DNA of 36,354 nucleotides from Clostridiales bacterium UBA4653 (GTDB taxonomy: Bacteria > Bacillota > Clostridia > Oscillospirales > CAG-272), in the NCBI GenBank assembly GCA_002405565.1, contig DHMB01000020.1, positions 8,241-44,594 on the forward strand. Reading direction: 5' to 3'. The notes under the pieces are model-generated. The model made no database searches, was not told where the DNA came from, and was given only the letters and a program-made list of their open reading frames with translations. Position numbers and translations under genes: made by a program. Below, piece by piece: positions 17,903-33,400 of the stretch; position 1 is the first letter of the stretch; the number at the start of each line of letters is the position of its first letter.

Positions 17903-20900
17903 GTGTTTTCAAAAAGGATTATCCGCATTCTGGCGCTGTGTATTGCCGCTGTATTTCTGATGGCATGCATACCGATGTCAGCCGCGCAGGCGAGCGAGGC
18001 GGAGGCGTCATACAAACGGAAGATTATTTCCGTTGTATATGACAACTCCGGCTCAATGGAGGTGCAGAGCAGAATAAATTATGCGCAGTATTCTCTTCAG
18101 ATACTGCTTTCAATGCTCGGCAGCGGCGACATTCTGACGATATCTCCGATGAACCCCGTCTCGGACGAAGAGCCGACGATTGAGGTCAAGCTCCAGGACG
18201 GAGACTGCAGCAATAAGATAAAGGAGATTGTCAACCGCAGGTCTATTACAAAGGCAAACGGCGGCACGCCGTTCGGAGCGGTTGAAAGAGCTGTCGAAGA
18301 GCTTGAAAAGCGCGGACTGAAAAAGGTTGAGGACGCGGGCGATGTTGAGCAGAGCGACGAATTCTGGCTCGTCATCCTGACGGACGGCTCGTTTGACTCG
18401 CTGGCGTCGCAGAGCAAGCTCGAGGACGCGATCGGCAAGCTGATCGGCAAATACAGCTCGCTCAGAACAATCTATCTCGGAATAGGCAGCAGCGCCGTGG
18501 ATCTTTCCTCCGGCAAGCTTGCGACTTCCGCGTCATTTACCGCACTGAAAGCGGGCGAAAAGACTTCGTTTGTTGAAAAAATGCAGACGATATGCAACAT
18601 AATGTCCGGAAGATACGCGCTCCAGCAGGATTCGTATACTATAAAAGGAAACAAGGTCACTCTTGACTTTGACAGAGCCGATTTCCCGTTCCGCACGGTT
18701 TCCGTCCTGCTTCAGGACTGCGCCGCGGAGCTCAGGGATATAAAATATAACGGAAAGAGCATTGAGCCGTCGCAGTTCAGCGTTCTGTCCGGTAACCCGA
18801 AGGTCGGTATGGAGGACGGATACTCCGCCGTTATAAAGGGAACGCCGTATTTCTCGTCCGGAAAGATGGAGCTTGTGTTCTCGTCCGACATAAAGGCTGA
18901 GAATCTGACGGTCACGGGCGAGCCCGCGCTTACTATTCAGCCGTATTTCGAGTATCTGAAAGACGGGAAATGGGAAAGAACGGACATCCGTTATATAAAC
19001 AGTAATCTTACAAAAAACGACTCGATAAGAGTCGGATATGAAATTTATGAGCAGGCAAACGGCAAAAAGCTCAATCTTGCCTCCATCTTCGGTGACGTTG
19101 TGTCATACGTTTCGTATGCCGGCAACCGCTACGAAATAGAAGAGAAGATACCGCTTGTCGTCGGTACGAACGAAATCGGCATATCGGTAAGCGTTATGGG
19201 CGGAAGCTACTCGATGACATCATCTGCGATGTGTATCATAAGCGATAACCCGATGGCGTACCGCATTGAAGCGACGACAGAGGAAAAGCGTGAAGCTTCG
19301 TCAAACAAAATGCTTGTGAAGTTCACGGTCTACTCCGATGACAAGCCGCTCTCCAAAAAACAGCTTGAGGAATACACTCTCAAGCTCGGCGCTGTGAGAG
19401 AAAACGGCACCGACCTTCCGATGAGTTTTGAAATCAATTCATCCGGTATTGTTGTTGCCGAGGTCGACCTGAAGGACGTTCCGTCCGGCGAAAAATGCAC
19501 TGTTTCGCTGAGAGTGACCTCTCCCTTGAACGTCTCACGCGAGAAAAAGGTGGAATTCAGCGTCAAGGCGAATATATCGAAGATCGACATAGGCCCCTCC
19601 GGTGATCTTTCATCAAAATCGTTCTCGCTTACACAGTATGAACTGCTCAGCAACAAAAACGGAATGGAATTCGTCCTCATGGCGAACGGTCAGGCTTATG
19701 ACTTCACAGCCTCCGGCGACATTTCTTATTCCGTTACGCTTGATGGCAGAGATATTACAAAATATACAAAAGCGGAAGGTAACAGACTGATATTCACCCC
19801 GACGCTTGAAAGCCTCGGAGACGAGGCGGGCAAGCCCGGAAAAAAGACGGTTGAGCTGACGGTTTCGTCAGTACTGAACCCCAAGGTTTCCGGAAAGGCA
19901 ACGGCGACTCTCGAGCTTCTGAAGTCCGAAATGACGGTGACCGTCAAAGCGGACGAGAGCCCGTTGAACATAACGCCGTATCAGCTCAAAAACAACGGGC
20001 GCGGATTTGAGTTTGTCATAAAGATTGACGGAAAGACTGTCGCTTTTGATGACGGAATCATTGATTGGCAGCTGACTCTCGGCGGAACGGATATAGGAAA
20101 GTACGCTACCGTAAGCGGCGGCGGACTCAGCTTTATCCCGACGGAGGAGAGCATGGGCGGAAGTACCTCTCTCGGCGGCAGAACCGCTTCCGTGAAGGCA
20201 TGGCTTAAGGAAATCCCGGATATATCGGCGTCGTGCGACGCTTCATGGAACATCGTCGACAGTCTTTGGGAGATCGTGATATTGCCGGGCACATCAGAGG
20301 TTGACCGCTTTGCGATAGAAGACAGCGGAGCTTCTTTCAAAGTAAAACTTATGAGAGACAAGGTCTGGCTCAGCGCCGAAGAGGCGCAGGCGCTCTTTGA
20401 ATCAGGCGCGCTCAGATTTGAATGCGGAATGATCGATAAGAACTTCCTGCTTCCTGTTGGCAAGGAGATAACCTTTGAAAGCGAAGACGGAGTCGGAATA
20501 ATAACATACAGCGTCACGCGCGATCAGATAAATCCCTTTGCAAGCTTTATGGCAATGCTTATTCCGAACGGCACGCGGACAGTAAACATTTTCTGCAACA
20601 CCGCAGAAAACAGCACAGACCTCTTCTTTGTGAAGAGCGCGGCATGGTCATACATATGGAGAATACTTGTTATTCTGCTGATAATTTATCTCATAGTATG
20701 GTTTGTGCTTGCGTTCAAGGTCAAGAGCTTCCCTTCGGGAAGAATTGTGACCGTTATAAGGAGCGGAGCGTATGCGAGATTTTCCAGCAAAGACCTGAAC
20801 AAGACGTTTATCGATAAATACTTGTGGCATCTTCAGCGCCTGCTCCCCTGGAAGCTGGCAACAAATCAGCCGGATCGTGACAAGGTCACATTCTCGTCCG

Positions 20901-21220
20901 GAATAACAACGAAGGGGTCGGCAAAATCAAGCGGAACCAAGGCGAAGCTGAAGATTAAAGGAAAGCCGCCGAAGAAGCTTTATAAGATATCGTTTGTAGG
21001 GCTTCCGACCGAAATTTATACGTACATGATGTCTTTCGGCAAACCTTCGATTGGCAAGGCGCCGGGGAAGATCAACGCAGACGATTTCTTCGGATGTGTT
21101 TCTCTTGAAGATGAGATAGAAAAATATCCCGATCTTTCAAGCGGAAAATATTATGCCGAAGTCGACGACAAAAAGGGAAAAGTAACAAAGGTTACTTATT
21201 ATATGAGAACAAATTTCTAA
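17903..21220 (+). CDS. Surface-exposed vWA-domain protein with Ig-like repeats, a single C-terminal TM anchor and a Lys-rich cytoplasmic tail
   Basis: 1105 aa. Signal peptide (...IPMSAAQA/SEA). Complete MIDAS: DNSGS (18041-18055), GGTPF, ILTDG. Beta-rich repeats include a clear ~100-aa tandem duplication (~19615-19920 vs ~19960-20220). TM helix WSYIWRILVILLIIYLIVWFVLAF (~20646-20717). ~165-aa tail includes KAKLKIKGKPPKK. GTG start. Confidence 0.85.
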   Translation: MFSKRIIRILALCIAAVFLMACIPMSAAQASEAEASYKRKIISVVYDNSGSMEVQSRINYAQYSLQILLSMLGSGDILTISPMNPVSDEEPTIEVKLQDGDCSNKIKEIVNRRSITKANGGTPFGAVERAVEELEKRGLKKVEDAGDVEQSDEFWLVILTDGSFDSLASQSKLEDAIGKLIGKYSSLRTIYLGIGSSAVDLSSGKLATSASFTALKAGEKTSFVEKMQTICNIMSGRYALQQDSYTIKGNKVTLDFDRADFPFRTVSVLLQDCAAELRDIKYNGKSIEPSQFSVLSGNPKVGMEDGYSAVIKGTPYFSSGKMELVFSSDIKAENLTVTGEPALTIQPYFEYLKDGKWERTDIRYINSNLTKNDSIRVGYEIYEQANGKKLNLASIFGDVVSYVSYAGNRYEIEEKIPLVVGTNEIGISVSVMGGSYSMTSSAMCIISDNPMAYRIEATTEEKREASSNKMLVKFTVYSDDKPLSKKQLEEYTLKLGAVRENGTDLPMSFEINSSGIVVAEVDLKDVPSGEKCTVSLRVTSPLNVSREKKVEFSVKANISKIDIGPSGDLSSKSFSLTQYELLSNKNGMEFVLMANGQAYDFTASGDISYSVTLDGRDITKYTKAEGNRLIFTPTLESLGDEAGKPGKKTVELTVSSVLNPKVSGKATATLELLKSEMTVTVKADESPLNITPYQLKNNGRGFEFVIKIDGKTVAFDDGIIDWQLTLGGTDIGKYATVSGGGLSFIPTEESMGGSTSLGGRTASVKAWLKEIPDISASCDASWNIVDSLWEIVILPGTSEVDRFAIEDSGASFKVKLMRDKVWLSAEEAQALFESGALRFECGMIDKNFLLPVGKEITFESEDGVGIITYSVTRDQINPFASFMAMLIPNGTRTVNIFCNTAENSTDLFFVKSAAWSYIWRILVILLIIYLIVWFVLAFKVKSFPSGRIVTVIRSGAYARFSSKDLNKTFIDKYLWHLQRLLPWKLATNQPDRDKVTFSSGITTKGSAKSSGTKAKLKIKGKPPKKLYKISFVGLPTEIYTYMMSFGKPSIGKAPGKINADDFFGCVSLEDEIEKYPDLSSGKYYAEVDDKKGKVTKVTYYMRTNF

Positions 21221-21248: not shown

Positions 21249-24200
21249 ATGAAAAACATTCTTCTCATCGGTGTCGGAGGCACCGGCAGCAACGCGGTTG
21301 ACATTCTTACTCAGAAGAGAAAAGAATTCGGAAACCAGACAGGCAACAGAATTACATCGATCGTGTTTGATACGGACGCCGGCAGCGTTGAAAATATTTC
21401 AGCGGCTACCATTATTCCCATGACGGACAATGCAAGCGTCGGCACCATCTGCGACAGAATAGGCACTTCGTACCTGCGCGAATGGTTCCCCTGCGACGAC
21501 ACATGGGTGGATTACAAGTCCGTCAGAGCGCAGGAAATGGTCAGAGGCGCATCGCAGTGGCGTAAGAAATCGTTCCTTGCATTCGTCAACCTTATGAATA
21601 AGCCTATGGCGCGCAACACCTTTATCAATGCGCTTGAATCAATGGTCGCAAACCCCGGCGCTTCATGCGAGGTATATGTCATTTCCTCAGTTGCAGGCGG
21701 AACGGGCTCCGGTTCATTTATACCGATCGCTCTTTATACCAAGAGATATCTTCGTAAGTGCCTCGGAAAGGATCCGATCGTAAACGCTATGATCGCCCTT
21801 CCCGATATATATGCCGACAGTCAGACCCCCGATAACAAGGTCAAGGTCTATGCAAACGCATATGCGATTCTTCGTGAGCTCAACGCCATAAACCTTGTTG
21901 CTCACAACTTCAATGACGACAACAAGACAGAAAAGAAGGCTCCTGTCAAATTCCGCATAGGTGATCCGAGAGAGCCCAACGTAGGCGTTCTGTTTGATTC
22001 GGAAGACGAGCAATACTGGACGCCTGAAGCCGCTCCGTTTACGCAGATATTTATACTCGACCGTATTCCCGGACTGAAATCCATCTCGGCGCACGATATG
22101 GTAATGGCTGACTCGCTTTATACTCTGATTTGTACGGATATCGGCGCGGCATTCGACAGCGAAGCGTCAAACCATGAGATTCTTCATTCGCAGAGCAACG
22201 GCAGCAACGCCATTTATGCAGGAATTTCCACATCACAGATACGTTTCCCCAGAGAGACGATTCTTGAATATCTCTCCCGCAGAAAAGCTCTCGGCGATTG
22301 CGAAAAGGAATGGATGGTTCTCCATCGCAAGGTCGAGGCGACGATTGCAGAGAAGATTCAGCAGGCAAAAGATAACAATGACAGATACGTTCTCAAGGAC
22401 GGCGGTTATGCAGAGCTCGTTTTGCAGTCGCTTGCAGACCTTGCCGAGAACGGAACAGGTATTCTTGTCTCCGATATGGTTGACCGCGGTACAGCGGTTG
22501 TTGAAGACGGAAAGAAGACCGACAAGTCAACCGAAGAAAAGTTCTTCGCAGAGCTCAAAAAGGAAATCGACAAGAGAGTTCTTTCGGATGAGAGATATTT
22601 CGAGGAAAACTGCGAGCGGCCTGCTCCTGAAAAGGCAAGTGCCAAAGAAGCTGTTGTCGAGAGCGCAGAAGCATGGAGAGAAGAAGGTCTCTTTGAGTAC
22701 TTTGCAGAATGTGTAAGACTTATCAAGAATTCTTCCACGAGCCTTGCGGAAGCTGTTCTTTCTCTTGACGAAAACCGCGGAATGGGACTTAACAAGTCGC
22801 TCTCTGTAATCGAAACGCTCCTTAAAAAGGATAATAAGTTCATTCACCCCGTTGCAGCAATGGTACAGCTTTGCAGACTGAAATGTCATCTCGCCGATTT
22901 CCTCAAGATAGGAAAGGGTGACTTCCAGTGGGAAGAAATCAAGAAGAGATCTGTTGATTCGCTTCCCGCATGGGCATTGGAACTTGACGATGATAGCGCA
23001 CCTGTTGACGACAAGAAGATTGTCAGCCGCAGTGCATATGCAAAATCGACAAGCGGCGTACAGAGATTCTCCGATCTCTGCGACGACAGTGAAACATATC
23101 TTTCAAAACATACCGATGCGCGTTGTGACCACGAGTGCGTTGAGGCAGACGTCAAAACGCTTTTCAAGAAAATACGCAAGAGAGCTGTTGATCAGTTCCA
23201 GTATGCCGTATTCAAGAAAATTTCCGATAACCTTGATATACTCATAGAAAAATACCGCAACTTCTTCTCCCGTTTCGACAAGGAAAGAGAAGAGCTTGAA
23301 GAAGAAACAAAGACTGTTCTCCGCAAGGACTGCGGCACGGTCGACAGCATTATAAACGTATATTCTTCAATTGCGGATAAGGAAGAAATCCTCAGAGACG
23401 TATTCAAGAACGCAGGCCCCGAGAGCGAAGCTCAGCTTGCCGAGACGGATGATATTGCCGGCAAGGGCGTATTCGCCACGGCGTACGGCGCTGCTGTTGC
23501 CGCAAGCAAACAGGACGAAACATGGAACGAGAAGGACTCCCGCGCATACCGTTCGCTCTTTACGAACATGGTTGCCGCTTACAGAGAGTATATCGCAAAA
23601 TCCGACGCGTACGCGAAGATCGCTTCGTTCAACGTTGTTCAGGCGATAGAATGTTCCTGCAAGGACAAAGATAAGCTCGAATCCGAATTCCGCACATGCT
23701 TCTCGACGGCTCAGGAGCTTGCAACTCCTTCTCTCCGTATAAATACGGGCGACGCATGCAGCGATCTTGTCAAACCTTCAAACGTCGTTGTATTCATGAT
23801 GTCGCTTGAAACAGGTAAATACATAAAGAAGAACGCCGACAAGCTCGGACTTCACCTGCCCGCAAATCAGAACAAGGAAAGCACGGTTATCCGTTCTTGC
23901 GTTGAGGAATTTGTCCGCCGCTATTCGGGCGATGACAGCGTTCGCGTTTCGATCGTTGAAAATATGCCCGATGACGTGCTCTACTGCACAGGCGAGATCA
24001 TGGACATCAGCCCTCTCCGCATTGCAAAGTTTGATGAATGCGGAACAGACAACATCTATTTCAGAAATTACAAGCAGGCGCTCTTCAATGCGAAGAGATT
24101 CGGCACGGATATGTGGAATCCTCACATCGGCAAGGACTTGCACCGTCGCGGCTACCTGCCCTATATGAACGAGGCTATGGAGGAAGAATGTGACGTCAAG

Positions 24201-25124
24201 ATGGTAAAGGCGCTCCTCTTCGCTCTGTCGACCGGCGGAATAACTTACACGGCAAGCGGACTTGCACAGACAAACGATGTCTACTCATTCCGTTACATCA
24301 CCTCAAAGGGCGACGACAAGAGACCTGTATTCGGCCCCGATGGCGCAATGGTTCAGATGAAGAATGTTGCTCAGCTTGTTGCATGGCTCCGCAACGAAGA
24401 CGATCTTGTTGACAAGTGGAGCTCTGGATTTGATAATGCAATTCAGGATCAGCTCAATGCGCTTCCCAACATCGCAAGCAATTCCGAGGTTCCGCGCCTT
24501 GAAGCAGCGATCACAAACTCCAAGTTTATTTCGCAGCTCAAGACAATGCTCTTTGCAGATCCTTCCATGAAGTCTGCAGACGACGCTTCTCCGGACAAGA
24601 AGGTCGGGCTCGGAATACTTGAATTTGCATATTATGTCAGAACGAGCGAAGAATCCTCCAAGGACTGCGACGACGCAGAGAGAATTCTCAGAGTTGCATA
24701 TGACGTATTCAGGCAGTTCTGCGCATTCCGCGCAAACCCCGAGCTGAACCCCGAAAGATTTATTCAGGTATACCGTCAGCAGATCGGCAACATATTTGCC
24801 GGACTTGCAGGATCACGCATATTCCAGAAGGAAGCCAAGGAAGAATCGCGCAGGATCTATTTCGATCAGTTCGTTTCATGGCTCAACGGCGCAGGCGTGT
24901 TCCTCAACATCAGCAATTCGTCACCGATTGACGACAAGGGCAACGTATGCATAACGGATAAATTCGATTATTCCGAATATCCCGATGTCACAAAGGTGCT
25001 CAGGACGGCTGCACCGAAGAAGGCAGTCTCTGCGGACAAACAGCCTGCAGAGGTTGTTCCTTCCGATGACGATTACATCGACACAGACGATGTTGACGTA
25101 ACGGACGAAGACGAAACAAACTGA
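21249..25124 (+). CDS. Giant tubulin/FtsZ-superfamily (Tubulin_2/FtsZL-like) GTPase, canonical motifs, acidic C-terminal tail
   Basis: 1291 aa. T1-like MKNILLIGVGGTGSNAVD (aa 1-18). Tubulin signature AGGTGSG at aa 149-155 (21693-21713), a T1-T4 spacing like eukaryotic tubulin. Long helical extension. Ends PSDDDYIDTDDVDVTDEDETN. AAGGAG SD. Confidence 0.8.
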   Translation: MKNILLIGVGGTGSNAVDILTQKRKEFGNQTGNRITSIVFDTDAGSVENISAATIIPMTDNASVGTICDRIGTSYLREWFPCDDTWVDYKSVRAQEMVRGASQWRKKSFLAFVNLMNKPMARNTFINALESMVANPGASCEVYVISSVAGGTGSGSFIPIALYTKRYLRKCLGKDPIVNAMIALPDIYADSQTPDNKVKVYANAYAILRELNAINLVAHNFNDDNKTEKKAPVKFRIGDPREPNVGVLFDSEDEQYWTPEAAPFTQIFILDRIPGLKSISAHDMVMADSLYTLICTDIGAAFDSEASNHEILHSQSNGSNAIYAGISTSQIRFPRETILEYLSRRKALGDCEKEWMVLHRKVEATIAEKIQQAKDNNDRYVLKDGGYAELVLQSLADLAENGTGILVSDMVDRGTAVVEDGKKTDKSTEEKFFAELKKEIDKRVLSDERYFEENCERPAPEKASAKEAVVESAEAWREEGLFEYFAECVRLIKNSSTSLAEAVLSLDENRGMGLNKSLSVIETLLKKDNKFIHPVAAMVQLCRLKCHLADFLKIGKGDFQWEEIKKRSVDSLPAWALELDDDSAPVDDKKIVSRSAYAKSTSGVQRFSDLCDDSETYLSKHTDARCDHECVEADVKTLFKKIRKRAVDQFQYAVFKKISDNLDILIEKYRNFFSRFDKEREELEEETKTVLRKDCGTVDSIINVYSSIADKEEILRDVFKNAGPESEAQLAETDDIAGKGVFATAYGAAVAASKQDETWNEKDSRAYRSLFTNMVAAYREYIAKSDAYAKIASFNVVQAIECSCKDKDKLESEFRTCFSTAQELATPSLRINTGDACSDLVKPSNVVVFMMSLETGKYIKKNADKLGLHLPANQNKESTVIRSCVEEFVRRYSGDDSVRVSIVENMPDDVLYCTGEIMDISPLRIAKFDECGTDNIYFRNYKQALFNAKRFGTDMWNPHIGKDLHRRGYLPYMNEAMEEECDVKMVKALLFALSTGGITYTASGLAQTNDVYSFRYITSKGDDKRPVFGPDGAMVQMKNVAQLVAWLRNEDDLVDKWSSGFDNAIQDQLNALPNIASNSEVPRLEAAITNSKFISQLKTMLFADPSMKSADDASPDKKVGLGILEFAYYVRTSEESSKDCDDAERILRVAYDVFRQFCAFRANPELNPERFIQVYRQQIGNIFAGLAGSRIFQKEAKEESRRIYFDQFVSWLNGAGVFLNISNSSPIDDKGNVCITDKFDYSEYPDVTKVLRTAAPKKAVSADKQPAEVVPSDDDYIDTDDVDVTDEDETN

Positions 25125-25170
25125 CGACCGTATCATAAAACGACAAAAACTCAAAGACCGTAATATAAAA

Positions 25171-25201
25171 GCTGTTTTCCGCCATTGCGGCGGAAAACAG
25201 C
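25171..25201 (+). other. Perfect 13-bp stem-loop between the two tubulin-like genes
   Basis: gctgttttccgcc (25171-25183), loop attgc, ggcggaaaacagc (25189-25201). No downstream U-tract on the + strand. A second ggcggaaag copy at 25206-25214 overlaps the weak SD of the next gene. Confidence 0.6.
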
Positions 25202-25228
25202 CAGCGGCGGAAAGGCAGACCCGATACT

Positions 25229-28200
25229 ATGGAAGAACGGATTATTATAATCGGCGCGGGAAGAACGGGCTGTGAAGCTGTCAGCGCTTTTGCCGAAAAC
25301 AACCCCGGAAAAAAGAACATTTTTCCGATGTTTTTCGGAACCGACGCCGCGGCTCTCGACGAGCTTTCCGAAAACGGAGTATCACCGAAAAACATTTTCA
25401 GAATGACAAGTAAAAATACTTTCGGACAGATTGTCCGTGACCTTGGCGAGGGAATTTCCGATTGGTTTTCATGCACATATGAAAACTGCTATGGCGGTCA
25501 GAGGGCGATGGAGCATGGGTCGGGCTTTTCAAGGCTTAAAGCAATGGTTTCCTTTGTCGATTTTATAGCGCGCGGCGGCGACAAGACAATCGAAGAAAGA
25601 ATTTCGGAGGTCGCCGGCGATGAGGCGGAATACAAGGTCTATACCGTTGCCGCTCCTTCCGACGCAACGGGAGGAGAACTGTTTTTGCCGATAACCCTGT
25701 ATATTGCGAGAGCGCTTTGGCAGAAGGGCGTTCATGCGGAATACGGTCTTCTGCTTTCGTCCCCGACGGCATTGACGTCCGGCGGAATGAATGAAATGCA
25801 GATGACAAAAGTTTTTGGAAACGCTTATGCTTCGCTTCGTGAGCTGAACGCCGTTATGAGCGGGGCGGGCGGAGAAGAATTTTCGATTGGCTCCGAAAAC
25901 GACCCTTATATAGGTCAGCTTTATCCTATGCAGGGCGAATATTCCGAAAACAAAGGGCTGTTCTCGCATGTCTATGTTGTCGGTAAAATTCCCGGCGTGT
26001 TTACGGCGTCGGGGCACATTTCGGTCATTTCCGACATGCTGTTTTTCCTTACGTCAGACATCGCACAGAGAACGCTTTCCGCGCGTAATGACAACGCTTT
26101 TACGTTTTTGTCGTCGGCATCGTTAGATTTTCCCGCCGGAAGGGCAATTGATTATATTGTTGACAGGGCGGTCTGCGATGATATTTTGCAGAGCATGAGC
26201 GCTTGCGGAAATCTTTCGGCTTATGCAGAGGAGATGCTCGGTTCGGAGGAGAAGAAAGCGCCGAGAGAGGATCAGAACATTCCTGAGAGCCTTTTTGCGA
26301 TTTTCGAAAACGAAAGTGTCATTTCGGATTACATAAACGCGCTTATCGAAGCTACGGAATTTACGGATGACGCACCGGTTTTCGATACCGAATGTGCGAC
26401 TCTGACCGAAGGCGGGCTCTGCCGCCGTCTGTTTGACGTAAAGAGCAAAACAACTGAAAAAACGGACAAATTCAATGCAATTGTTACGGATTGCAAAAAG
26501 GAGCTTTCCTCCTATGCCGAGGCGTTCCGTCTGCACACCGTGCGCGTTTGCGGATTATTGTCCGAAAAAGTATTTCCGGCGGGCGCGGAGGGCGAGCTTT
26601 CGTTTGCATCCGCGATCGGAATCGGATCATGTCGGCTCGATGTGGTATTTGCGCGGCTTTGCACATTCCGCAAGGTGCTGGCAAAAGTCATCGACGACAA
26701 AAAATGTAATCTTATAAAGATGAAGACGGGCGAGAGCATAAGCGAATATACAGACCGCGCGACATCGGAGCGCATGCCCGTCATAAGAACCGACGGAGAG
26801 TATCTGTTGACGACGGAAAAAAACATAACGAAAGAAAAATGCGAATCGCTTGCGTCCGTGCTGAAAAGAGCGGGGGACGATATCCGCACCATGGCAAACC
26901 TTCGGATGCGATATGCGGTGCTTGAACTGCTTTCCGACTTTACGGACAGGTTGATTTCGGAGGGCAAGCGGCTTATCTCCGATTTTAAGGAGGTCATCTC
27001 GGATTACGGAGCTTCGGGAGCGGACAGAGAAGAGCTGACCGAGCTTGAAAGTCGCTATGAGGATATATATAAAGAGATGCGCGGGGCTTTGGCGGAGACG
27101 GTTGCCGGCGGAATTTCGGATGTGACGGTTTCGGTCGTTTCCGGAATTTACGGAAGTGTCTTGGGCATAAATGACGGCACGCCCGAGCGGGAGCCCGCAT
27201 ACAAAATTTACTGCGGCGAGAAGGAAAGAGCGATAAAAGCCGCTGCCGAAGGCGATGTTATGCGTATTTTGCGACGCAAAAGCGTAACGGAGCTTATGCC
27301 GCAGAAAACGGAAAATGATTTCGGCGCATACCTTTCGTCGATAGCCGACAGGGCGATGCCGGTGTTTTCATACTCCGAAAACCGAGCCTGCGAGAGCCGT
27401 CCGCGCAGAGGCGTGATTACGGTGCTTCCGCGCGAAGCGGCGGAAGCAATTGCCGCAAAGGAAGACGGAGACGCGCCGAAGAGCGCAGAGGACGCGGTCA
27501 GAGATTATCTTGTCAGACACAAGTGTCTTGATTCCGAGTTTGCCGTCTGTGACGGGTTGTCGGCTTTCAGAATTATCTGCTTCGGATTTGCCGAAAATCT
27601 TTCGCTCGAGAATTTTACACTTGTACGCGAGTCGGACAAGGACGCGAAATGGTATGAAGAATACCTCAAATGTCTTGAAAATGAAAGTAAATTCAGGTCT
27701 GTCCTGTGGCACCCGTACATTTCATCCTGCACAAGGGGAATACCGCCGTGCATAGACAAAGAGTTTGAAAAATCGCGCAATGCACAGATCTGCAAAGCGC
27801 TTGTATATATGTTCATCGGAAACGGATTTTCCGCAGAATATGATGAGAGATCCGGTAAAAAGGTTGTTTTCCGTGATGAAGGCGGACGAAAGTATCCGCT
27901 CTCTGTCGACGGAAAGAGCATTGCCGCGGGGGATTTTTGCGGCATGACGGATTATCTTGTGTCAAACGAGCCGGTTGCAAGAGATATGGCATTGGCGTTT
28001 GACGAATATATCGACCGTAACTGCGCGGAGACCGTAAAAAACATATCCGGCTCCGATGAAAACGATAATTTGATTGATTGCGCACTTATGCGGGCGCTCC
28101 GCGGTAACGGCGAGCGTGCGGAAGAAAAGCTGCCGCTTTCGGAAATGCTTCTTAAATATCTTTCCGTCGGGGGAAAACTGGCGGAAGGAATTGCGGACGC

Positions 28201-28414
28201 TTTGCTTTGCGCAATCGAAAAGCTGTGCTTATCCGTAAACAAAGACAGTGATTCCGAGACTGTCGGAGCGCGGATATTCAAGGAAATTGAAGCCCTGCGC
28301 GGCTGTGTCGCCGCGTCGGCTCTTTCGCGGATGACGGAGACGGCGGAAGAAAAATATCGTCCTTCGGCGGTTCCGACGAAAGAAACAAACAGTAGTGAGG
28401 AGAGATTATGTTAA
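25229..28414 (+). CDS. Paralogous tubulin-like protein with degenerate nucleotide-binding signature
   Basis: 1061 aa and collinear with the upstream gene. Matching blocks: MEERIIIIGAGRTGCEAV vs MKNILLIGVGGTGSNAV; KVYTVAAPSDATGGELFLPITLY vs EVYVISSVAGGTGSGSFIPIALY; KVFGNAYASLRELNAV vs KVYANAYAILRELNAI; FSHVYVVGKIPGV..SGHISVISDMLFFL vs FTQIFILDRIPGL..SAHDMVMADSLYTL. The signature GGTGSG is replaced by DATGGE (25661-25678). Confidence 0.72.
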   Translation: MEERIIIIGAGRTGCEAVSAFAENNPGKKNIFPMFFGTDAAALDELSENGVSPKNIFRMTSKNTFGQIVRDLGEGISDWFSCTYENCYGGQRAMEHGSGFSRLKAMVSFVDFIARGGDKTIEERISEVAGDEAEYKVYTVAAPSDATGGELFLPITLYIARALWQKGVHAEYGLLLSSPTALTSGGMNEMQMTKVFGNAYASLRELNAVMSGAGGEEFSIGSENDPYIGQLYPMQGEYSENKGLFSHVYVVGKIPGVFTASGHISVISDMLFFLTSDIAQRTLSARNDNAFTFLSSASLDFPAGRAIDYIVDRAVCDDILQSMSACGNLSAYAEEMLGSEEKKAPREDQNIPESLFAIFENESVISDYINALIEATEFTDDAPVFDTECATLTEGGLCRRLFDVKSKTTEKTDKFNAIVTDCKKELSSYAEAFRLHTVRVCGLLSEKVFPAGAEGELSFASAIGIGSCRLDVVFARLCTFRKVLAKVIDDKKCNLIKMKTGESISEYTDRATSERMPVIRTDGEYLLTTEKNITKEKCESLASVLKRAGDDIRTMANLRMRYAVLELLSDFTDRLISEGKRLISDFKEVISDYGASGADREELTELESRYEDIYKEMRGALAETVAGGISDVTVSVVSGIYGSVLGINDGTPEREPAYKIYCGEKERAIKAAAEGDVMRILRRKSVTELMPQKTENDFGAYLSSIADRAMPVFSYSENRACESRPRRGVITVLPREAAEAIAAKEDGDAPKSAEDAVRDYLVRHKCLDSEFAVCDGLSAFRIICFGFAENLSLENFTLVRESDKDAKWYEEYLKCLENESKFRSVLWHPYISSCTRGIPPCIDKEFEKSRNAQICKALVYMFIGNGFSAEYDERSGKKVVFRDEGGRKYPLSVDGKSIAAGDFCGMTDYLVSNEPVARDMALAFDEYIDRNCAETVKNISGSDENDNLIDCALMRALRGNGERAEEKLPLSEMLLKYLSVGGKLAEGIADALLCAIEKLCLSVNKDSDSETVGARIFKEIEALRGCVAASALSRMTETAEEKYRPSAVPTKETNSSEERLC

Positions 28415-30450
28415 CCTACGTGATAAACACCTCTGAAAACAAAATATTTGACAGCGATCTGCTTTTTGAACTTGCCGGATATAACAAGATCAGATGGATG
28501 CATTGCAGTCTTGATAAGGTGAAGGAGTGTGCGATTGAAATATGCGATAAGCAGAATGTGCTCGGGGCGGACGCCTTCCGCATTGCTGTCATCGTGGATT
28601 TCTATTGCTTTGACAGAGTTCGCCGTCCATACGGTTACAGCGGGTATACGGATGATCCGGGCGTGGATCTTTGTCTCTATTACCCTTATATCGAAACATA
28701 CCTCTCCGATCACCTTCTCAGTCACCTTGACAGAAATAATCTGCACGCGGCAACGTGCGAAATTTACTATATACAAAACGAAAAAAATGATAAATATTCA
28801 AATATAGACAACCGCAAAGAGCAGCTGAAAAAAATCATGAAGGCTGTCGACTTCGGTGGTGCGGAAATCGAGCTTCCCGAGGAAAAGAAAGAATCGGCGC
28901 ACACGGGTGAAAGCGAAACTGACTTTATTGGTCAGAACGGAAAAACCAAGCAGGGAACAGGGAAAAATGAGGATGAAGAAAAAACTCCGGAGGAGAAATA
29001 TCCGAAATTCAGACTTTATTGCACGCCCGGCGTCTCGCTTGATTTTGAGGTCAAAGATTACCCGTATTGCGGCGGAGCCGAGATGACTTTTTCCGATTTC
29101 ACAAGAGAACTTGAAGGACGCTATTCCGGAAAAAGACATATGATATGCCATTCTTACGTAACCGCTTACGGTTGCGGCTCGGCGATGGCGGCGTTCGATA
29201 CGCTCGCGCTTTCGCTTTATCTTGTGCACATGTATGAACGCGAGGAGGACAGACGCGACAGCACGGATTTTGAAATAGATCATCTTGATCCGATCGCGCT
29301 CAGAAATGTTCTCGAAAAGGCATGGAACAAGATCCACTGCGCAAAGGAGCTTGCGCAGGAAAACAAGTGCGAATATTACGCGCTTGATTTCGAAATGGCA
29401 AACGGAAAAAAGAAAAAGGAAGAATATACAGAGCCCGACGAAAAGGAAGAGCTGAGAAAATTCCGTGCCGCCGTAAAACCTGCGGATCTTGATTTTTCTT
29501 CAGATGAGCTTTATAAGAAAATAGTTGAGTATGCTTCCAGAAGGATGAACGAGCCGAGCGAAGCCGACCGCGAGGAGCTTGACAAGCTAATGCGCGGATA
29601 TCTTGAAAACAGAGACGGCACGCGCGAGGTCGGTGTGCAGAGCGAGTTTGAACAGCTTTGCGCCACGGGCGCATTCAAAATGCAGAAGCAGTGCCCGTCA
29701 AAGCTGCAATATGACATAGTCGTTGAAGAAAGACAGACGAAGATATCCGAGATTTTTGAGAGAACTCTCAAAGCCGAATATCTGAAAACAGACTATGCCG
29801 AAGTCTATAAAGAGGCGAGCGAGCATTATGCCGAGCATAAAGAGCTTATGCGCCAGAGGAGCAGATGGATAGTTGCCGATATCGTGCTTTTCATAATAAT
29901 GGTTGCGTCGATACTTGTCCCGTTCCATTATATGCAGGCGCTGAAAAGCGGCGGCGTTGTATATGACATCATGCGTTACATATGGACAGCCGCGCCGTTT
30001 ATGGCGCTGTTCGTCCTGTGCTTTATAATCATAGTCATAACGATTTCCGTAAGACTGAAACGCGTCAGGGAACGACTTCAGCTATGCCTTGAGATATGTA
30101 TCGCAAAGCATGCGTTTTCAATGTCGGCACTGAAAAGACGTTATGAAAAAGAGCTTCCCGAGATTGAAAAGATAAGATACGAAATCCGCGGGATTGCAAA
30201 TCTTCAGGAGAAGAACATCGAAAAGAACAGAAACATCAGACTTCACAGGGAAACGCTCGAGAATGTTGAAAACAGACTCAGCGCGATTCTCAATAACCTC
30301 GGAGTTGAGCCCAAGCCCGAAAAGCATGAGGATCTCTCCGACGAATTCGACGCACAGAAGCCCATAAACGCTCCGATAAACAGCGTTTACAGAATTTTCT
30401 CCGTCGAAGCGATAGAGTCGATGTTTCCGGACAAAAGGGGGAAACAGTAA
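28408..30450 (+). CDS. Unknown protein with cytoplasmic N-domain, charged linker, TM hairpin and C-terminal coiled coil
   Basis: 680 aa. ATG overlaps the upstream stop (ATGTTAA), with GAGGAG SD. TM helices at 29866-29928 (WIVADIVLFIIMVASILVPF) and 29983-30051 (WTAAPFMALFVLCFIIIVITISV). Heptad-like charged C-terminus. Confidence 0.78.
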   Translation: MLTYVINTSENKIFDSDLLFELAGYNKIRWMHCSLDKVKECAIEICDKQNVLGADAFRIAVIVDFYCFDRVRRPYGYSGYTDDPGVDLCLYYPYIETYLSDHLLSHLDRNNLHAATCEIYYIQNEKNDKYSNIDNRKEQLKKIMKAVDFGGAEIELPEEKKESAHTGESETDFIGQNGKTKQGTGKNEDEEKTPEEKYPKFRLYCTPGVSLDFEVKDYPYCGGAEMTFSDFTRELEGRYSGKRHMICHSYVTAYGCGSAMAAFDTLALSLYLVHMYEREEDRRDSTDFEIDHLDPIALRNVLEKAWNKIHCAKELAQENKCEYYALDFEMANGKKKKEEYTEPDEKEELRKFRAAVKPADLDFSSDELYKKIVEYASRRMNEPSEADREELDKLMRGYLENRDGTREVGVQSEFEQLCATGAFKMQKQCPSKLQYDIVVEERQTKISEIFERTLKAEYLKTDYAEVYKEASEHYAEHKELMRQRSRWIVADIVLFIIMVASILVPFHYMQALKSGGVVYDIMRYIWTAAPFMALFVLCFIIIVITISVRLKRVRERLQLCLEICIAKHAFSMSALKRRYEKELPEIEKIRYEIRGIANLQEKNIEKNRNIRLHRETLENVENRLSAILNNLGVEPKPEKHEDLSDEFDAQKPINAPINSVYRIFSVEAIESMFPDKRGKQ

Positions 30451-33400
30451 ATGATTGTTGCAGCCAAAATATTATTTCTGATAGTACTGCTTTTGGTTCT
30501 GTCATATCCGTTTCTGCCTTTTTCATCGAAGGCAAAGCGCTTTTCAACGTTTTCATCGCTGAGATACAATCCCCCGTTCAACAAACGTAATTTCATATTC
30601 ATTCCGATAACAATTGCGGAATTTATAGTCGTGGCGCTGATTTTTGAGATAATCGCGGGACTTTGCGATAAATTCGGAAGTCTGCCGTTTGTTTCGACAA
30701 TCATAAGCGCTGTTGAAGCAAAGCTCGGCGTTCAGGGCGGATTTTTCGTCTTTGCCGTGCGCGTGCTTCTGATAAACATTGCAATTCTCTATGCGTTTAT
30801 ATTTGTAAAAGGAATATTGCGTCATGTGTTTATCGACCCCATATTCGGTTGGGGCAAAAACGGGAAGATGACCCGTAAAGAGCGCAAGGCGCTTGCGGAA
30901 AAACGTAAACTTGAAAAGAAAAAGAGAAAAGAAGCAAAGAAAAGAGGCGAGAAATACGTTGCCGAGGAGCCCGCTCCCGAGCCCGTGAAAACGGATGACG
31001 GAGAGGAAGACCCGGAGAACGGTCACATAATGCGCTTCCCGCACCTTGAAGGTGACGAGGAAAAGGATGAGAACAAGAAGCGCTCCGGCGAAACGGAGAA
31101 GGAGTCATCCTCCGAAACGGAAGGAATTCCGAAGGAAGAAGAGCCGCCGGCTCCGCCCAAATCGGAGTTTATGCGCGCGATACTCGGTATCTTCTTCGAA
31201 GCTCCCGATTATCTTTATGCAAGACCGAGCGTTGCCCGCGCAACGGCAGTTCTGCAAACCTTCCTTTATATTGTCGAGGCAATATATATACTCCTCTTTG
31301 TCAACATGGCGGCAATGCTCGTTTTTGCAATGCCCGAATGGATGTACAGAGTGGCGCAGATCATAAGAAGCTTCTATATTTACCCGTTTATCTCCGTTAT
31401 ATTCCTTCAGGAGATATGCAATTTCCTGCGCACAAAGCAGCCCGTGGAAAAGCCCGAGGAGCTTATGCAGAAGGAAGAAGAGGAAACAAAGAAGGAATGT
31501 GAAGCGAGACTTGTCGCGCTCAACAACGAGCTGACAAAGCGCTTCGATGAAAATCATTTCTTCCGTTATTATCCCGAGCTGCCCTGCAAGGAGGTTCCGG
31601 AATACGTTTGCACTAACATTCCTTACGCAAGTGCGCTTGCGTATATACGCGAATACGCCAGACAGAATTCGGGGCATGTTGTCCAGAGTTATATGGAAAG
31701 TCTGGACGCGGTGTTCAATGACAACCACATCTATTTCGGCACGTCATTCTATTCGGAATACGGCGAATATCTCATTTCTTATGCCTATACCAGACTTCTC
31801 TCCGGCGCGAGAATGATATTCATCATTTCCGATATGGAAAAGGCGGAGTCGCTCCGCAGATACATACGCGACAGACTTACCTCCATGACGAATTGCAGTA
31901 ACAATGCGACATGGCGCGTATATATAAAGGGAGAAAGACTTGACCAGGCGGACATTCTCATCGCCACACCCGAGGATTTCCGCGATGACAGCATAATAAA
32001 CCATTATCCCGCGTTCTTTGAAGAGGTCTGCAACGCGGTGTTTGTGGACGCGGATCGCATAACCGCGATATACGGTTATCTTTGCCCGATTCTTTCGATG
32101 AGACTGAAAAAGGCGACGGAAAACAGGATCCGCTTTATATTCCTCACGCGTGACATCATGCGCGGATTTGCGGCAAAAAGCCTGCCGAGATATTTCTGTA
32201 TCGACAAGGTTTATACATGCAGCAGTGCGCTTGAAAACGAGAGCACCGCATACACGCTTCTCAACAGAGAAAGCAAGCACCACAGAATTTATAATAAGCA
32301 CGGGCAGACTCTCACGAGCCTTGAATGTATCGTCGCCGAGCAGGCGGTGAAGTTCGGTGTTGACGGAGTCAAGGTTATAAGCGGCGCGCCGATCGACCAT
32401 GCGGACGCAGTTTCCCTTGCGACAAAGGGCGTTGAGCTGAATGAATTCTATAAGCCCGTTCCGAAGATAAACTACATGATCTATGCGGATGACAGGTGTA
32501 ACCTCGCTTCCGCCATCTATACGTGCACCCGCTTCAGGGGACATGTAAAATCCATTGCAAACATTATCTCCAAGCCCTATCTTCTCCGCGACTACTTCGT
32601 CTTTATGGCGAGCAACGGCGAATATATAAACCGTTCATCGTTCATTCAGCCGCGTGCCGTTGAGAGCATGGACGTCGGAAAGCTGAGCCTGCTCCGTATC
32701 TTCTGCGAAGCCAGCATGGATGACGGAATGTCGCTTGCGAAGTTCTGCGAGAAGATGAGAAACATCATTGAAATGGTCGGCAACCGTTTTTCGTCGGCGC
32801 CGAGCTGTTTCTGCGGTGATATGATCGACAAGATCAAGAGCGGGGAGCTTGTGCCCGACGAGGATGACTATGCCGCATATCTTGTCTCCGGACTTTTTGA
32901 TTATGCCGGCACGGGCAAAGATCGCAGCGAGGGCAAGAAGGCGAAGGATTACTATCTTATCGTCGACTCCAAATACAGCACCTCCGCAAGTCGCGACAAG
33001 ACAATCTGCTTTAAGAGAAGCAAATATTTCTTTGACAGACTTACGGACAAAAACAAACGCGTCGAGCTGCGGTTAAATGACTCGACGATAGGCTATCTTG
33101 ACACGTTCCCGGGCAGAGTTCACCAGCAGTATATGGTGGGGCAGAGTATCATCTTCCGCAACATGGAATATGAGATAGGCGAAATATCGGACGACAGCAG
33201 CGTAATTTACCTGCGCAACGAAAACGTCACGTTCAAAAACTCGCTCGATACGTTCTTTTTGCGTCGTTATGACGTCAGAAATCTTGAAAAGGTCGGGGAC
33301 GAGGGTATCCTTTACCGTTCAAACTCCAACCTTGCCGAGATACGCGTCTCGCACGCGATAGCCGATATCACCGGCGAAAACTACGGCTTCTTTACGCTGA

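What the first reader, a model, noticed from the sequence alone, without database searches (positions are those of the whole stretch)
21249..28414. Tandem giant tubulin-like paralogs: one canonical, one with a degenerate GTP signature (heterodimer-like pair)
Both proteins start with a beta-strand plus Gly-rich loop (IGVGGTGSN vs IGAGRTGCE). They share collinear blocks along the N-terminal ~330 aa and again near the C-terminus (NPHIGKDLHRRGYLPYMNE...VKALLFALSTGG vs WHPYISSCTRGIPPCIDKE...ICKALVYMFIGNG).

Gene A keeps the tubulin signature AGGTGSG at aa 149-155, which is almost the position of GGGTGSG in eukaryotic tubulin (about aa 142-148). Gene B has DATGGE at the aligned site.

An active/degenerate pair encoded side by side recalls the alpha/beta-tubulin and BtubA/B heterodimer logic. 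Here, though, each protein is over 1000 aa with a large helical extension, far larger than FtsZ, TubZ, PhuZ or CetZ.
Basis: partly seen in the sequence, partly recalled or inferred. Interest (0 to 1): 0.88.

Follow-up and report, generated by a model that had tools for sequence, protein, structure and literature searches.

The report
Paired giant FtsZ-like (FtsZl1) genes
Two neighbouring 1000+ aa genes are real tubulin/FtsZ-like paralogs of the known but unstudied FtsZl1 family; the pair is conserved across a clade of gut Clostridia, but the "dead" GTP site in the second copy is a quirk of this lineage.

Summary
ORF A (21249-25124) and ORF B (25229-28414) are full-length paralogs (BLASTP E=1e-24; profile comparison E=4e-137 over 1090 columns), and all quoted motifs are present.

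Both belong to the known FtsZl1/Tubulin_2 family (Makarova & Koonin 2010), whose members are typically about 750-1400 aa and sit next to a vWA gene. The large size is therefore not new.

They lie in a five-gene operon: vWA membrane protein, A, B, a 2-TM protein D, and a giant membrane protein E with a transglutaminase-like end. This order is kept wherever the contig allows, across 48 loci from uncultured Clostridia.

The duplication is old. A evolves slowly (N-domain 66% mean identity) and B fast (28%), but B is still under purifying selection (dN/dS 0.19).

Most B orthologs keep GGTGS, so the degenerate signature arose only in this sublineage and in one other.

The clade-wide asymmetry is different. 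B lacks an invariant acidic loop (FDSExSNHE) that A and single-copy relatives keep.

An αβ-tubulin-like division of labour remains possible but untested. Paired tubulin-domain genes in Firmicutes were already noted by Kaur et al. 2020.

The parts
17903..21220 (+). Gene 1: vWA membrane protein (1105 aa). Signal/TM at aa 1-31, extracellular vWA domain with MIDAS plus a beta-rich ectodomain, TM at aa ~912-945, cytoplasmic tail at aa ~945-1105.
   Evidence: Hydropathy. D47xS49xS51...T122...D161 are invariant in 11 orthologs. 5 of 11 orthologs hit Pfam VWA_2, best E=7.6e-6. The gene sits upstream of A wherever the upstream flank is present.
20735..21220 (+). Cytoplasmic tail of the vWA protein: a strain-level variable cassette.
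   Evidence: Against L053 the tail is 29% identical while the ectodomain is 97-99% identical. Its divergence tracks that of the A middle region (partial r about 0.62-0.63).
21249..25124 (+). Gene 2: FtsZl1 paralog A (1291 aa), slowly evolving, with complete GTP-binding motifs.
   Evidence: Pfam PF13809 E=2.4e-33 over aa 5-345. More than 120 orthologs at 47-96% identity. dN/dS 0.078.
21249..22499 (+). A N-domain (aa 1-417) with a tubulin/FtsZ-like fold. T1 GVGGTGS at aa 8-14; T3-like RGASQWRKK at aa 99-107; T4 AGGTGSG at aa 149-155.
   Evidence: AF2 pLDDT 74.9. Foldseek PDB top hits are CetZ 3zid (E=1.5e-6), FtsZ, TubZ and tubulins. Motifs are invariant across orthologs.
22152..22178 (+). A-specific invariant acidic loop FDSEASNHE (aa 302-310), directly after helix 279-302. 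Candidate T7-like loop.
   Evidence: Invariant in the A orthologs shown (first-position copy of L034 is degenerate). A loop with a conserved Asn is present in single-copy outgroups. It is deleted or unconserved in the divergent B family. The T7 assignment is inference only; hhalign disagrees at low confidence.
22500..23198 (+). A middle region (aa ~418-650), variable and swapped between strains.
   Evidence: 49% identical to L053, while the flanking A parts are 96-99% identical, with sharp boundaries.
25170..25202 (+). Perfect GC-rich hairpin (13-15 bp) in the A-B spacer, 27 nt before the B start. No U-tract follows it on the + strand.
   Evidence: A perfect 10-17 bp stem at the same place occurs in 23 of 45 loci with unrelated sequences. 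It is absent where the second copy is A-like.
25229..28414 (+). Gene 3: FtsZl1 paralog B (1061 aa), fast evolving. In this lineage it has a decayed nucleotide pocket.
   Evidence: Pfam PF13809 27.4 bits. Paralogous to A over its full length. AF2/Foldseek returns FtsZ, TubZ and tubulin, but the MSA was mostly A orthologs. dN/dS 0.19.
25661..25678 (+). Degenerate T4 site DATGGE (B aa 145-150).
   Evidence: Aligned to A's GGTGSG. The window B differs from the B-family consensus at 11 of 40 conserved positions, including D41G, W104S, S147A, G150D, G151A and S154G, plus D271G.
28408..30450 (+). Gene 4: protein D (680 aa). Cytoplasmic N-domain, 2 TM helices (aa 484-554), C-terminal helical tail. Its start overlaps the B stop by 7 nt.
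   Evidence: Follows B in every locus that extends far enough. No Pfam, NCBIfam, PADLOC or PDB relative.
30451..36354 (+). Gene 5: protein E (at least 1968 aa here; runs off the window; 2072-2079 aa in close relatives). N-terminal TM helices, CxxC...CxxC zinc-ribbon-like motif, C-terminal transglutaminase-like domain.
   Evidence: Orthologs lie downstream of D in more than 35 loci. The ORF listing does not report it because it runs off the end.

Best explanation
Shown:
- A and B are two full-length paralogs of the FtsZl1 (Pfam Tubulin_2) branch of the tubulin/FtsZ superfamily.
- They sit in a five-gene, membrane-associated operon: vWA receptor-like protein, A, B, 2-TM protein D, and giant membrane protein E with a transglutaminase-like domain.
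- The duplication is ancient within a clade of uncultured gut and rumen Clostridia, and both copies have been kept ever since.
- A is the conserved, motif-complete GTPase subunit.
- B is a fast-evolving copy under purifying selection that has lost an invariant acidic loop following the core helix.
- In the window's sublineage B has additionally lost its GTP-binding signature, making it a likely pseudo-GTPase.

Inferred:
- A assembles in a GTP-dependent way under the membrane, held by the cytoplasmic tail of the vWA protein. The tail and the A middle region co-vary and are swapped together between strains.
- B joins A through the tubulin-like and/or helical domains but cannot supply the loop that A supplies. 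It therefore acts as a non-catalytic modulator, cap or adaptor that links the assembly to D and E.
- B is probably made in smaller amounts than A, because a conserved hairpin separates vWA-A from the translationally coupled B-D-E.
- The cellular output (envelope or membrane remodelling versus a conflict response) is not resolved.
For: - Family and fold. The family description in PMC2875224 matches.
- Full-length paralogy.
- Cassette order is kept wherever the contig allows, across 48 loci from different species-level genomes, plus L052-L056.
- The A and B clades mirror each other in an NJ tree rooted with actinobacterial single-copy FtsZl1.
- Rates: mean pairwise identity is 0.66 for A_N and 0.45 for A_C, against 0.28, 0.15 and 0.13 for B_N, B_mid and B_C. 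dN/dS is 0.078 for A and 0.19 for B.
- The residues that stay at least 80% conserved in B cluster in T1, T3, T4 and the NAYAxLxELNA helix.
- Pocket decay occurs only in window/L037 (partly L026) and in L007/L047.
- Loss of the A-specific loop in B.
- Two-module signals: coupled allelic swap of the vWA tail and A aa 418-650 in L053; partial correlations of 0.63 for A_mid with V_tail and 0.43-0.60 for B with D; hairpin in 23 of 45 loci, with B/D overlapping and D/E abutting.
Against: - No direct evidence that A and B touch each other. AlphaFold-Multimer was not available.
- The B structure model rests on an MSA dominated by A orthologs.
- The T7 reading of the A-specific loop is not established. 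AF2 confidence there is below 50. hhalign against FtsZ places the FtsZ T7 loop at A aa 273-283 instead, at low confidence. Makarova & Koonin could not align the family beyond H5.
- The co-variation statistics use non-independent locus pairs and have no significance test. The coupled swap is a single event.
- The effect of the hairpin on expression is assumed, not measured.
- Basal loci (L027, L034, L039, L046, L025) have A-like second copies, so the asymmetry is graded rather than absolute.
Confidence: 0.6

Rival explanations
1. A and B form an obligate 1:1 αβ-tubulin/BtubAB-like heterodimer. One subunit has an active GTP site and the other a degenerate one, and this dimer is the polymerising unit.
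For: - Strict co-occurrence and co-divergence of the two paralogs.
- Both N-domains are tubulin/FtsZ-like.
- Complementary asymmetry exists: B lacks a loop that is invariant in A, and in this window B also lacks the T4 signature.
Against: - The degenerate signature is not conserved. 33-37 of 39 divergent B orthologs keep each GGTGS residue, so an active/dead GTP site is not what selection maintains.
- A conserved intercistronic hairpin, with B coupled to D/E rather than to A, argues against fixed 1:1 dosage.
- The tubulin-type C-terminal/intermediate domain and the T7 loop could not be identified (PMC2875224).
- No complex prediction or biochemistry is available.
Confidence: 0.2
2. The cassette is a biological-conflict (anti-invader) system of the kind proposed by Kaur et al. 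2020. The extracellular vWA protein and its variable parts sense an invader. The tubulin-like proteins form an NTP-dependent assembly as switch or effector. B and the swapped cassettes evolve fast because of an arms race.
For: - Kaur et al. (PMC7159879) describe firmicute GAP1-N2 systems with two tubulin plus coiled-coil genes and a TM protein with extracellular vWA.
- The vWA ectodomain and tail, the A middle region and B are all very variable, with strain-level cassette replacement.
- A TIR-LRR gene lies nearby in the window and in L002, L003, L019, L037, L052 and L053.
- E ends in a transglutaminase-like (thiol-peptidase fold) domain.
- A Thermus plasmid homolog sits next to brxL, an exonuclease and RecQ.
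Against: - The defining DO-GTPase and GAP1 components were not found. There is no Pfam hit in D, E or their orthologs.
- There is only one vWA gene.
- No PADLOC hit for any cassette protein.
- Flanking genes are housekeeping, with no mobile-element genes in four species.
- A's N-domain is conserved like a core cellular protein, and B's dN/dS is 0.19, not above 1.
Confidence: 0.2
3. B is a decaying, functionless duplicate, and the pairing has no mechanistic meaning.
For: - B evolves 2-4 times faster than A.
- In this window B has lost several pocket residues.
- It barely reaches the Pfam threshold.
Against: - Intact full-length ORFs are retained at the same position in every locus long enough to show it.
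- dN/dS is 0.19.
- 40 positions, mostly pocket motifs, are at least 80% conserved across B.
- B is translationally coupled to D.
Confidence: 0.03

Closest known systems
FtsZl1 family / Pfam Tubulin_2 (PF13809) with its vWA partner (Makarova & Koonin 2010, Biol Direct 5:33)
   Same: - N-terminal FtsZ-like GTPase domain with T1 and T4 motifs.
- About 1000+ aa with a long helical middle and a helical C-domain.
- A vWA (MIDAS-intact, membrane) gene directly upstream.
- Membrane proteins downstream. The order vWA, FtsZl1, a ~680 aa protein, then a giant membrane Zn-finger protein matches their Ruminococcus lactaris and 'Bacteroides' capillosus operons (B5, B12) in gene order and protein size only.
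   Different: - Every neighbourhood in their Additional file 5 has one FtsZl1 gene, apart from a transposon-split Sulfolobus gene. Here there are two, conserved across a clade, with asymmetric rates and motif content.
- Homology of D and E to their B5 and B12 was not tested, because no sequences were at hand.
Tubulin-containing GAP1-N2 DO-GTPase 'conflict' systems of Firmicutes (Kaur, Burroughs, Iyer, Aravind 2020, eLife 9:e52696)
   Same: - Two genes for tubulin-domain proteins with C-terminal coiled-coil regions.
- A TM protein with extracellular vWA.
- A membrane-proximal multi-gene operon.
   Different: - No DO-GTPase, no GAP1, and no second (YtkA-fused) vWA gene detected here.
- Genomic flanks are housekeeping genes.
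αβ-tubulin and BtubA/BtubB heterodimers
   Same: - Two co-encoded superfamily paralogs kept together.
- One copy lacks a conserved loop the other has. This recalls β-tubulin lacking the catalytic T7 glutamate that α-tubulin supplies (established knowledge of tubulin).
   Different: - In tubulin both subunits bind GTP. Here most B copies keep the signature, but the window's B does not.
- No recognisable tubulin C-terminal domain.
- About 900 extra residues, and membrane partners.
- Probable unequal dosage.
- Dimer formation is untested.
FtsZ, CetZ, TubZ/PhuZ
   Same: These are the best structural matches to both N-domain models (E down to 1e-6, about 280-330 aligned columns). The T1 and T4 motifs align with FtsZ.
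   Different: - Pfam Tubulin PF00091 scores 29.2 bits, below its cut-off of 33, and matches only aa 3-53.
- TM-scores are only about 0.4.
- No FtsZ_C domain.
- Large inserts between T1 and T4, and after H5.

Membership tests
FtsZl1 / Pfam Tubulin_2 (PF13809) | Match to the family HMM above the gathering threshold | tested here: met
   A scores 116.3 bits against a cut-off of 27, covering the whole profile (1-349 of 356). B scores 27.4 bits against 27, covering a partial profile (174-346). B's membership is secured by full-length homology to A, and second paralogs in other species carry PF13809.
FtsZl1 / Pfam Tubulin_2 (PF13809) | N-terminal FtsZ/tubulin-type nucleotide-binding domain with a glycine-rich T1 loop and the GGTG(S/T)G T4 signature | tested here: met
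   A has GVGGTGS and AGGTGSG, both invariant in orthologs, and the fold search returns FtsZ, CetZ, TubZ and tubulin. For B in this window, T1 is kept (GAGRTG) but the T4 signature is NOT met (DATGGE). Most B orthologs meet it.
FtsZl1 / Pfam Tubulin_2 (PF13809) | [quoted passage not shown] | tested here: inconclusive
   The lengths fit (1291 and 1061 aa). AF2 shows long helices from aa 335 to the end of the modelled piece at aa 440. No coiled-coil predictor was run, and no model was made of aa 440 to the end.
FtsZl1 / Pfam Tubulin_2 (PF13809) | Operon partner with a vWA domain and intact MIDAS, often membrane-associated | tested here: met
   The gene at 17903-21220 has invariant MIDAS residues DxSxS...T...D and is a single-pass membrane protein. 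It lies upstream of A in all loci that include the upstream flank.
αβ-tubulin / BtubAB-type heterodimer | Two co-inherited paralogs | tested here: met
   A tandem pair is present in every locus long enough to show it, and the A and B trees mirror each other.
αβ-tubulin / BtubAB-type heterodimer | Both subunits bind GTP; one subunit lacks the catalytic T7 acidic residue | tested here: inconclusive
   The window's B lacks the GTP signature, whereas most B orthologs keep it. B lacks an invariant acidic loop present in A, but the identity of that loop with T7 is not established.
αβ-tubulin / BtubAB-type heterodimer | Stable longitudinal heterodimer that is the assembly unit | not testable with these tools
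   No multimer prediction or biochemistry was available. The conserved A-B hairpin hints at unequal dosage.
αβ-tubulin / BtubAB-type heterodimer | Tubulin/FtsZ C-terminal (activation) domain following core helix H7 | tested here: inconclusive
   Foldseek alignments span about 280-330 columns of FtsZ or CetZ but with TM-scores of about 0.4. AF2 confidence is below 50 for A 303-342. No Tubulin_C or FtsZ_C Pfam hit.
GAP1-N2 DO-GTPase conflict system with tubulins (Kaur et al. 2020) | DO-GTPase gene(s) and a GAP1 (N2-M-C) protein as the constant core | tested here: not met
   No GTPase or GAP1 family hit in vWA, D or E, or in 12 D orthologs and 4 E orthologs. No such gene lies within the cassette. 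This depends on those families being represented in the Pfam copy used.
GAP1-N2 DO-GTPase conflict system with tubulins (Kaur et al. 2020) | Two tubulin plus coiled-coil genes and two vWA genes (one fused to YtkA, one TM with extracellular vWA) | tested here: inconclusive
   Two tubulin-like genes and one TM protein with extracellular vWA are present. A second, YtkA-fused vWA gene is absent.
Canonical FtsZ/TubZ/CetZ (Pfam Tubulin PF00091 plus FtsZ_C) | PF00091 above threshold across the GTPase domain, and an FtsZ_C or TubZ C-domain | tested here: not met
   PF00091 scores 29.2 bits, below the cut-off of 33, and matches only aa 3-53 of A. There is no hit for B and no C-domain hit. A PDB sequence-profile search finds FtsZ only at E=8.8.

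The most novel reading that the evidence does not exclude
A clade of gut Clostridia has independently evolved a tubulin-style division of labour inside the FtsZl1 branch.

- A would supply both a GTP site and a T7-like catalytic loop (FDSExSNHE).
- B would keep, or in some lineages lose, the GTP site but never supply the loop.
- A-B interfaces would then be hydrolysis-dead. B would cap or polarise a membrane-tethered A assembly.
- That assembly would connect an extracellular vWA receptor (through its tail) to the D/E membrane machinery.
Probability: 0.2. Interest if true: 0.75.

Novelty: new variant of a known kind. Interest (0 to 1): 0.45.

Why it matters
FtsZl1 is one of the most divergent branches of the tubulin/FtsZ superfamily. 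In the library and PDB copy searched, I found no functional study of it and no solved structure detectable by sequence.

A clade in which the gene has been kept as an asymmetric pair for a long time gives a natural experiment. It shows which features are indispensable: A's motifs and loop. It also shows which are dispensable: B's GTP pocket was lost at least twice.

The data also point to concrete partner contacts that can be tested: the vWA tail with the A middle region, and B with D.

If A and B co-assemble with a catalytic and a non-catalytic subunit, this would be a further independent origin of the logic behind αβ-tubulin.

If not, the finding is still a well-defined, abundant, uncharacterised membrane system of gut Clostridia.

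Tried and rejected
- **Protein search for B.** The search for homologous proteins with B alone and with a 21-sequence B alignment gave only 1 and 4 hits. The word index misses this fast-evolving family. B orthologs had to be taken from loci found through A.
- **Metagenome scan.** The wider distribution of tandem pairs was instead sampled three ways: Makarova's Additional file 5; plasmid tblastn with 5 records, one place each; and family HMMs on three single-copy loci.
- **Sporulation link.** The cassette sits next to spoIIIA in the window, but that synteny is absent from the 48 genome-scan loci and is seen only in the two ~95%-identical relatives. Rejected.
- **Convergent 266-aa gene.** An apparently conserved ORF at 31744-32544(-) is an antisense shadow of gene E. 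Rejected.
- **PADLOC.** No hit for any cassette protein.
- **PDB sequence searches.** Profile or sequence searches for A, the vWA domain and D found nothing usable.
- **hhalign in global mode.** It gave nonsense. Local mode gave a weak full-domain alignment to FtsZ that does not settle where T7 lies.
- **Not used.** The search of protein representatives was not run, because counts without genomic context would not have changed the verdict.


Full report
**1. Observation**

The window has two adjacent + strand ORFs at exactly the stated coordinates: A at 21249-25124 (1291 aa) and B at 25229-28414 (1061 aa). A has IGVGGTGSN at aa 7-15 and AGGTGSG at aa 149-155. B has IGAGRTGCE at aa 8-16 and DATGGE at aa 145-150.

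BLASTP of A against B gives 26% identity over 356 aa (E=1e-24) and a second segment of 20% over 453 aa (E=1e-5). Comparing a profile of 21 A orthologs with a profile of 21 second-copy proteins gives probability 100% and E=4e-137, with 1090 aligned columns. The two are therefore collinear paralogs over their whole length.

**2. Family**

Pfam places A in Tubulin_2 (PF13809) with E=2.4e-33 over the full profile. B scores 27.4 bits against a cut-off of 27. The classical Tubulin family (PF00091) is hit only below threshold, at A aa 3-53.

AF2 models were made for both N-domains. A aa 1-440 has pLDDT 74.9. B aa 1-410 has pLDDT 63, from an MSA that is mostly A orthologs. Their significant PDB matches are CetZ, FtsZ, TubZ and tubulins (E down to 1e-6, TM about 0.4); the B list also holds one weak unrelated hit, 1qyv. 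A sequence-profile search of the PDB finds nothing significant, so I could detect no solved structure of this family by sequence.

PF13809 corresponds to the FtsZl1 family of Makarova & Koonin (2010). [quoted passage not shown] Listed members run from about 730 to 1400 aa. The gene usually follows a vWA gene, and the authors predicted a membrane-remodelling role (PMC2875224).

**3. Operon**

- Upstream of A, 28 nt away, is a 1105-aa single-pass membrane protein. It has an N-terminal signal/TM segment, an extracellular vWA domain and a cytoplasmic tail of about 160 aa. The MIDAS residues D47xS49xS51, T122 and D161 are invariant in 11 orthologs, and 5 of 11 orthologs hit Pfam VWA_2.
- B's stop overlaps the start of D (28408-30450). 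D is 680 aa with two TM helices and has no detectable relatives.
- One base after D's stop begins a fifth gene, E. It runs off the window, so the ORF listing does not report it. It is at least 1968 aa here and 2072-2079 aa in close relatives. It has N-terminal TM helices, a CxxC...CxxC motif and a C-terminal transglutaminase-like domain (Pfam 21.3 bits; PDB 9crn_A E=1e-12).
- The rest of the window is ordinary chromosome: a GTPase, dnaG, rpoD, the spoIIIA operon and a TIR-LRR protein.

**4. Is the pair conserved?**

A has more than 120 full-length orthologs at 47-96% identity, the named ones all from Clostridia MAGs. A scan of one genome per species returned 48 loci, all from uncultured Clostridia of human, rabbit, deer, goat, yak, buffalo and sheep guts.

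In every locus long enough, the order is vWA, A, a second Tubulin_2 paralog, D, E. The same holds on long contigs whose flanks carry housekeeping genes (IMPDH/GuaA, SmpB/Suf, glycosidases) and no mobile-element or defence genes.

An NJ tree of N-domains, rooted with actinobacterial single-copy FtsZl1, separates a short-branched A clade from a long-branched B clade with mirrored topology. A few basal loci have A-like second copies.

Outside this clade I found only single copies:
- all neighbourhoods in Makarova & Koonin's Additional file 5;
- five plasmid records;
- three loci searched with family HMMs.

The pair is an old, clade-specific duplication.

**5. Rates and selection**

Mean pairwise identities across 35 loci are:

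| Region | Mean identity |
|---|---|
| A N-domain | 0.66 |
| A C-part | 0.45 |
| D | 0.35-0.40 |
| A middle | 0.28 |
| B N-domain | 0.28 |
| B middle | 0.15 |
| B C-part | 0.13 |

Against a relative that is about 95% identical at the nucleotide level, dN/dS is 0.078 for A and 0.19 for B. B is functional but less constrained.

**6. The GTP site**

In the 39 divergent B proteins, the 40 positions that stay at least 80% conserved lie mostly in T1, the T3-like GAxxWR motif, T4 (S-x-x-GGTGS) and the NAYAxLxELNA helix. Each residue of GGTGS is kept in 33-37 of the 39. The closest informative B ortholog (L026) has AGGTGSAL.

The window's B is the second most deviant member. It differs at 11 of the 40 positions: D41G, W104S, S147A, G150D, G151A, S154G and others. 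It also has D271G at a likely T6 position. L037 shares much of this decay, and L007/L047 show it independently.

So B normally keeps a nucleotide pocket, and the pocket has been lost at least twice. Loss of the pocket is evidently tolerated.

**7. The asymmetry that is clade-wide**

Directly after helix 279-302, A orthologs carry a loop, CT(D/E)IGxxFDSExSNHE...SQNNGS, that is near-invariant (the first-position copy of basal locus L034 is degenerate there). The sequence of that helix resembles FtsZ H7. Single-copy FtsZl1 proteins from Actinobacteria, Azospirillum and Thermus keep a loop there, with a conserved Asn and acidic neighbours in two of the three. The divergent B family has it deleted or unconserved, and the A-like second copies show intermediate decay.

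By position and the AF2 secondary-structure order (strand 266-270, loop, helix 279-302, loop), this is a candidate T7-like loop. That is inference only. The model is unconfident there (pLDDT below 50). hhalign against validated E. coli and recalled B. subtilis FtsZ sequences (probability 55%) instead places the FtsZ T7 loop on A 273-283, at low confidence. Makarova & Koonin also could not align the family beyond H5.

**8. Module structure**

Three independent hints point to two sub-modules, vWA+A and B+D+E.

- **Hairpin.** A perfect GC-rich hairpin with a 10-17 bp stem sits 5-42 nt before the B start in 23 of 45 loci. The sequences are unrelated between species, and the tail is not U-rich. It is absent where the second copy is A-like. 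In the window it is at 25170-25202. Meanwhile B/D overlap and D/E abut.
- **Coupled swap.** In relative L053, two sharply bounded patches are replaced while everything around and between them is 96-100% identical. The patches are the vWA cytoplasmic tail (29% identity) and A aa 418-650 (49% identity).
- **Co-variation.** Across locus pairs, after regressing out the divergence of A's N- and C-parts, A-middle correlates best with the vWA tail (0.63), and B regions correlate best with D (0.43-0.60). These statistics are exploratory, because the pairs are not independent.

**9. Most likely mechanism**

Shown: the identity of the proteins, the operon, the age of the pair, the rate asymmetry and the motif asymmetry.

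Inferred:
- A is the GTP-dependent assembling subunit, held under the membrane by the vWA tail.
- B co-assembles with A but lacks the loop A supplies. It acts as a non-catalytic modulator, cap or adaptor towards D/E.
- B is probably sub-stoichiometric.

The cellular output remains open. Conservation, housekeeping flanks and the absence of PADLOC hits favour an envelope or cytoskeletal role. The variable ectodomain, the cassette swapping, the nearby TIR-LRR gene and the peptidase-fold end of E keep a conflict-system reading alive.

**10. Comparison with known systems and novelty**

The family and its vWA partnership are known (2010). Kaur et al. 2020 had already remarked that firmicute GAP1-N2 DO-GTPase systems contain two tubulin plus coiled-coil genes and an extracellular-vWA membrane protein (PMC7159879). 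Here the defining DO-GTPase and GAP1 components were not detected, and there is only one vWA gene.

Three things appear to be new:
- the demonstration that the pair is a long-lived, asymmetric A/B couple;
- the loop loss in B, with repeated pocket loss;
- the two-module organisation.

I rate this a new variant of a known kind, of moderate interest.

Noticed in passing
window 30451-36354 (+), continues beyond the window end: A giant fifth operon gene (E) that the ORF listing cannot show because it runs off the end. It has TM helices, very acidic and lysine-rich low-complexity linkers, a zinc-ribbon-like CxxC...CxxC at aa 1201-1230, and a transglutaminase-like C-terminus. In Christensenellaceae-type loci it is split into a ~1420-aa gene plus a separate ~400-aa transglutaminase-like gene (L004, L005, L014, L031, L040, L042).
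   Followed up: partly
window 25170-25202; same position in 23 of 45 related loci: A perfect GC-rich hairpin in the A-B spacer, conserved as a structure but not as a sequence, with no U-tract after it. It may be an mRNA-stability or processing element that sets the A:B ratio. It is absent in loci where the second copy is still A-like.
   Followed up: partly
window 20735-21220 and 22500-23198, compared with L053 (6684-9974 and 10001-13852): Between genomes about 95% identical, the cytoplasmic tail of the vWA protein and aa 418-650 of A are both replaced by divergent alleles (29% and 49% identity) with sharp boundaries. The A N-domain lying between them stays at background identity. This looks like coupled allelic cassettes.
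   Followed up: partly
window 14604-16250 (+): A 548-aa protein with an N-terminal TIR domain and BspA-type leucine-rich repeats. It gives weak ThsB-like hits in PADLOC. It lies near the cassette here and in L002, L003, L019, L037, L052 and L053, but not in most other loci.
   Followed up: partly
window 30553-32544 (- strand ORFs): ORFs of 163-266 aa on the minus strand appeared 'conserved' in 15 loci. They are antisense shadows of gene E, not genes.
   Followed up: yes
window 5899-9135 (+): A 1078-aa ORF with an N-terminal hydrophobic segment and no Pfam, NCBIfam or PADLOC hit, lying between rpoD and the spoIIIA operon.
   Followed up: no
window 16343-17866 (+): A 507-aa protein with about 6 TM helices and a soluble C-terminal half, directly upstream of the vWA gene. 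It is found there only in the closest relatives (L037, L052, L053).
   Followed up: partly
L025 9959-20298; L043 4082-11787; L015 3-9984; L034 4343-12148: Variants of the cassette. L025 has three tubulin-like genes. In L043 the first copy is split at an apparent frameshift. L015 has two vWA genes, one of 2324 aa. In L034 both copies are A-like, and the more degenerate one comes first.
   Followed up: no
L051 (Thermus oshimai plasmid pTHEOS01) 5712-18999: A single-copy vWA, tubulin-like, 677-aa gene trio sits between a TROVE (Ro-like) gene and brxL, a 3'-5' exonuclease and a RecQ helicase. This is a defence-island-like context.
   Followed up: no
window 18900-20400 (vWA ectodomain, aa ~560-760): Two similar beta-rich segments of about 100 aa (…DITKYTKAEGNRLIFTPTLESLG… and …DIGKYATVSGGGLSFIPTEESMG…) suggest tandem Ig/FNIII-like repeats in the extracellular part. 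Ectodomain identity between species is only about 26%.
   Followed up: no
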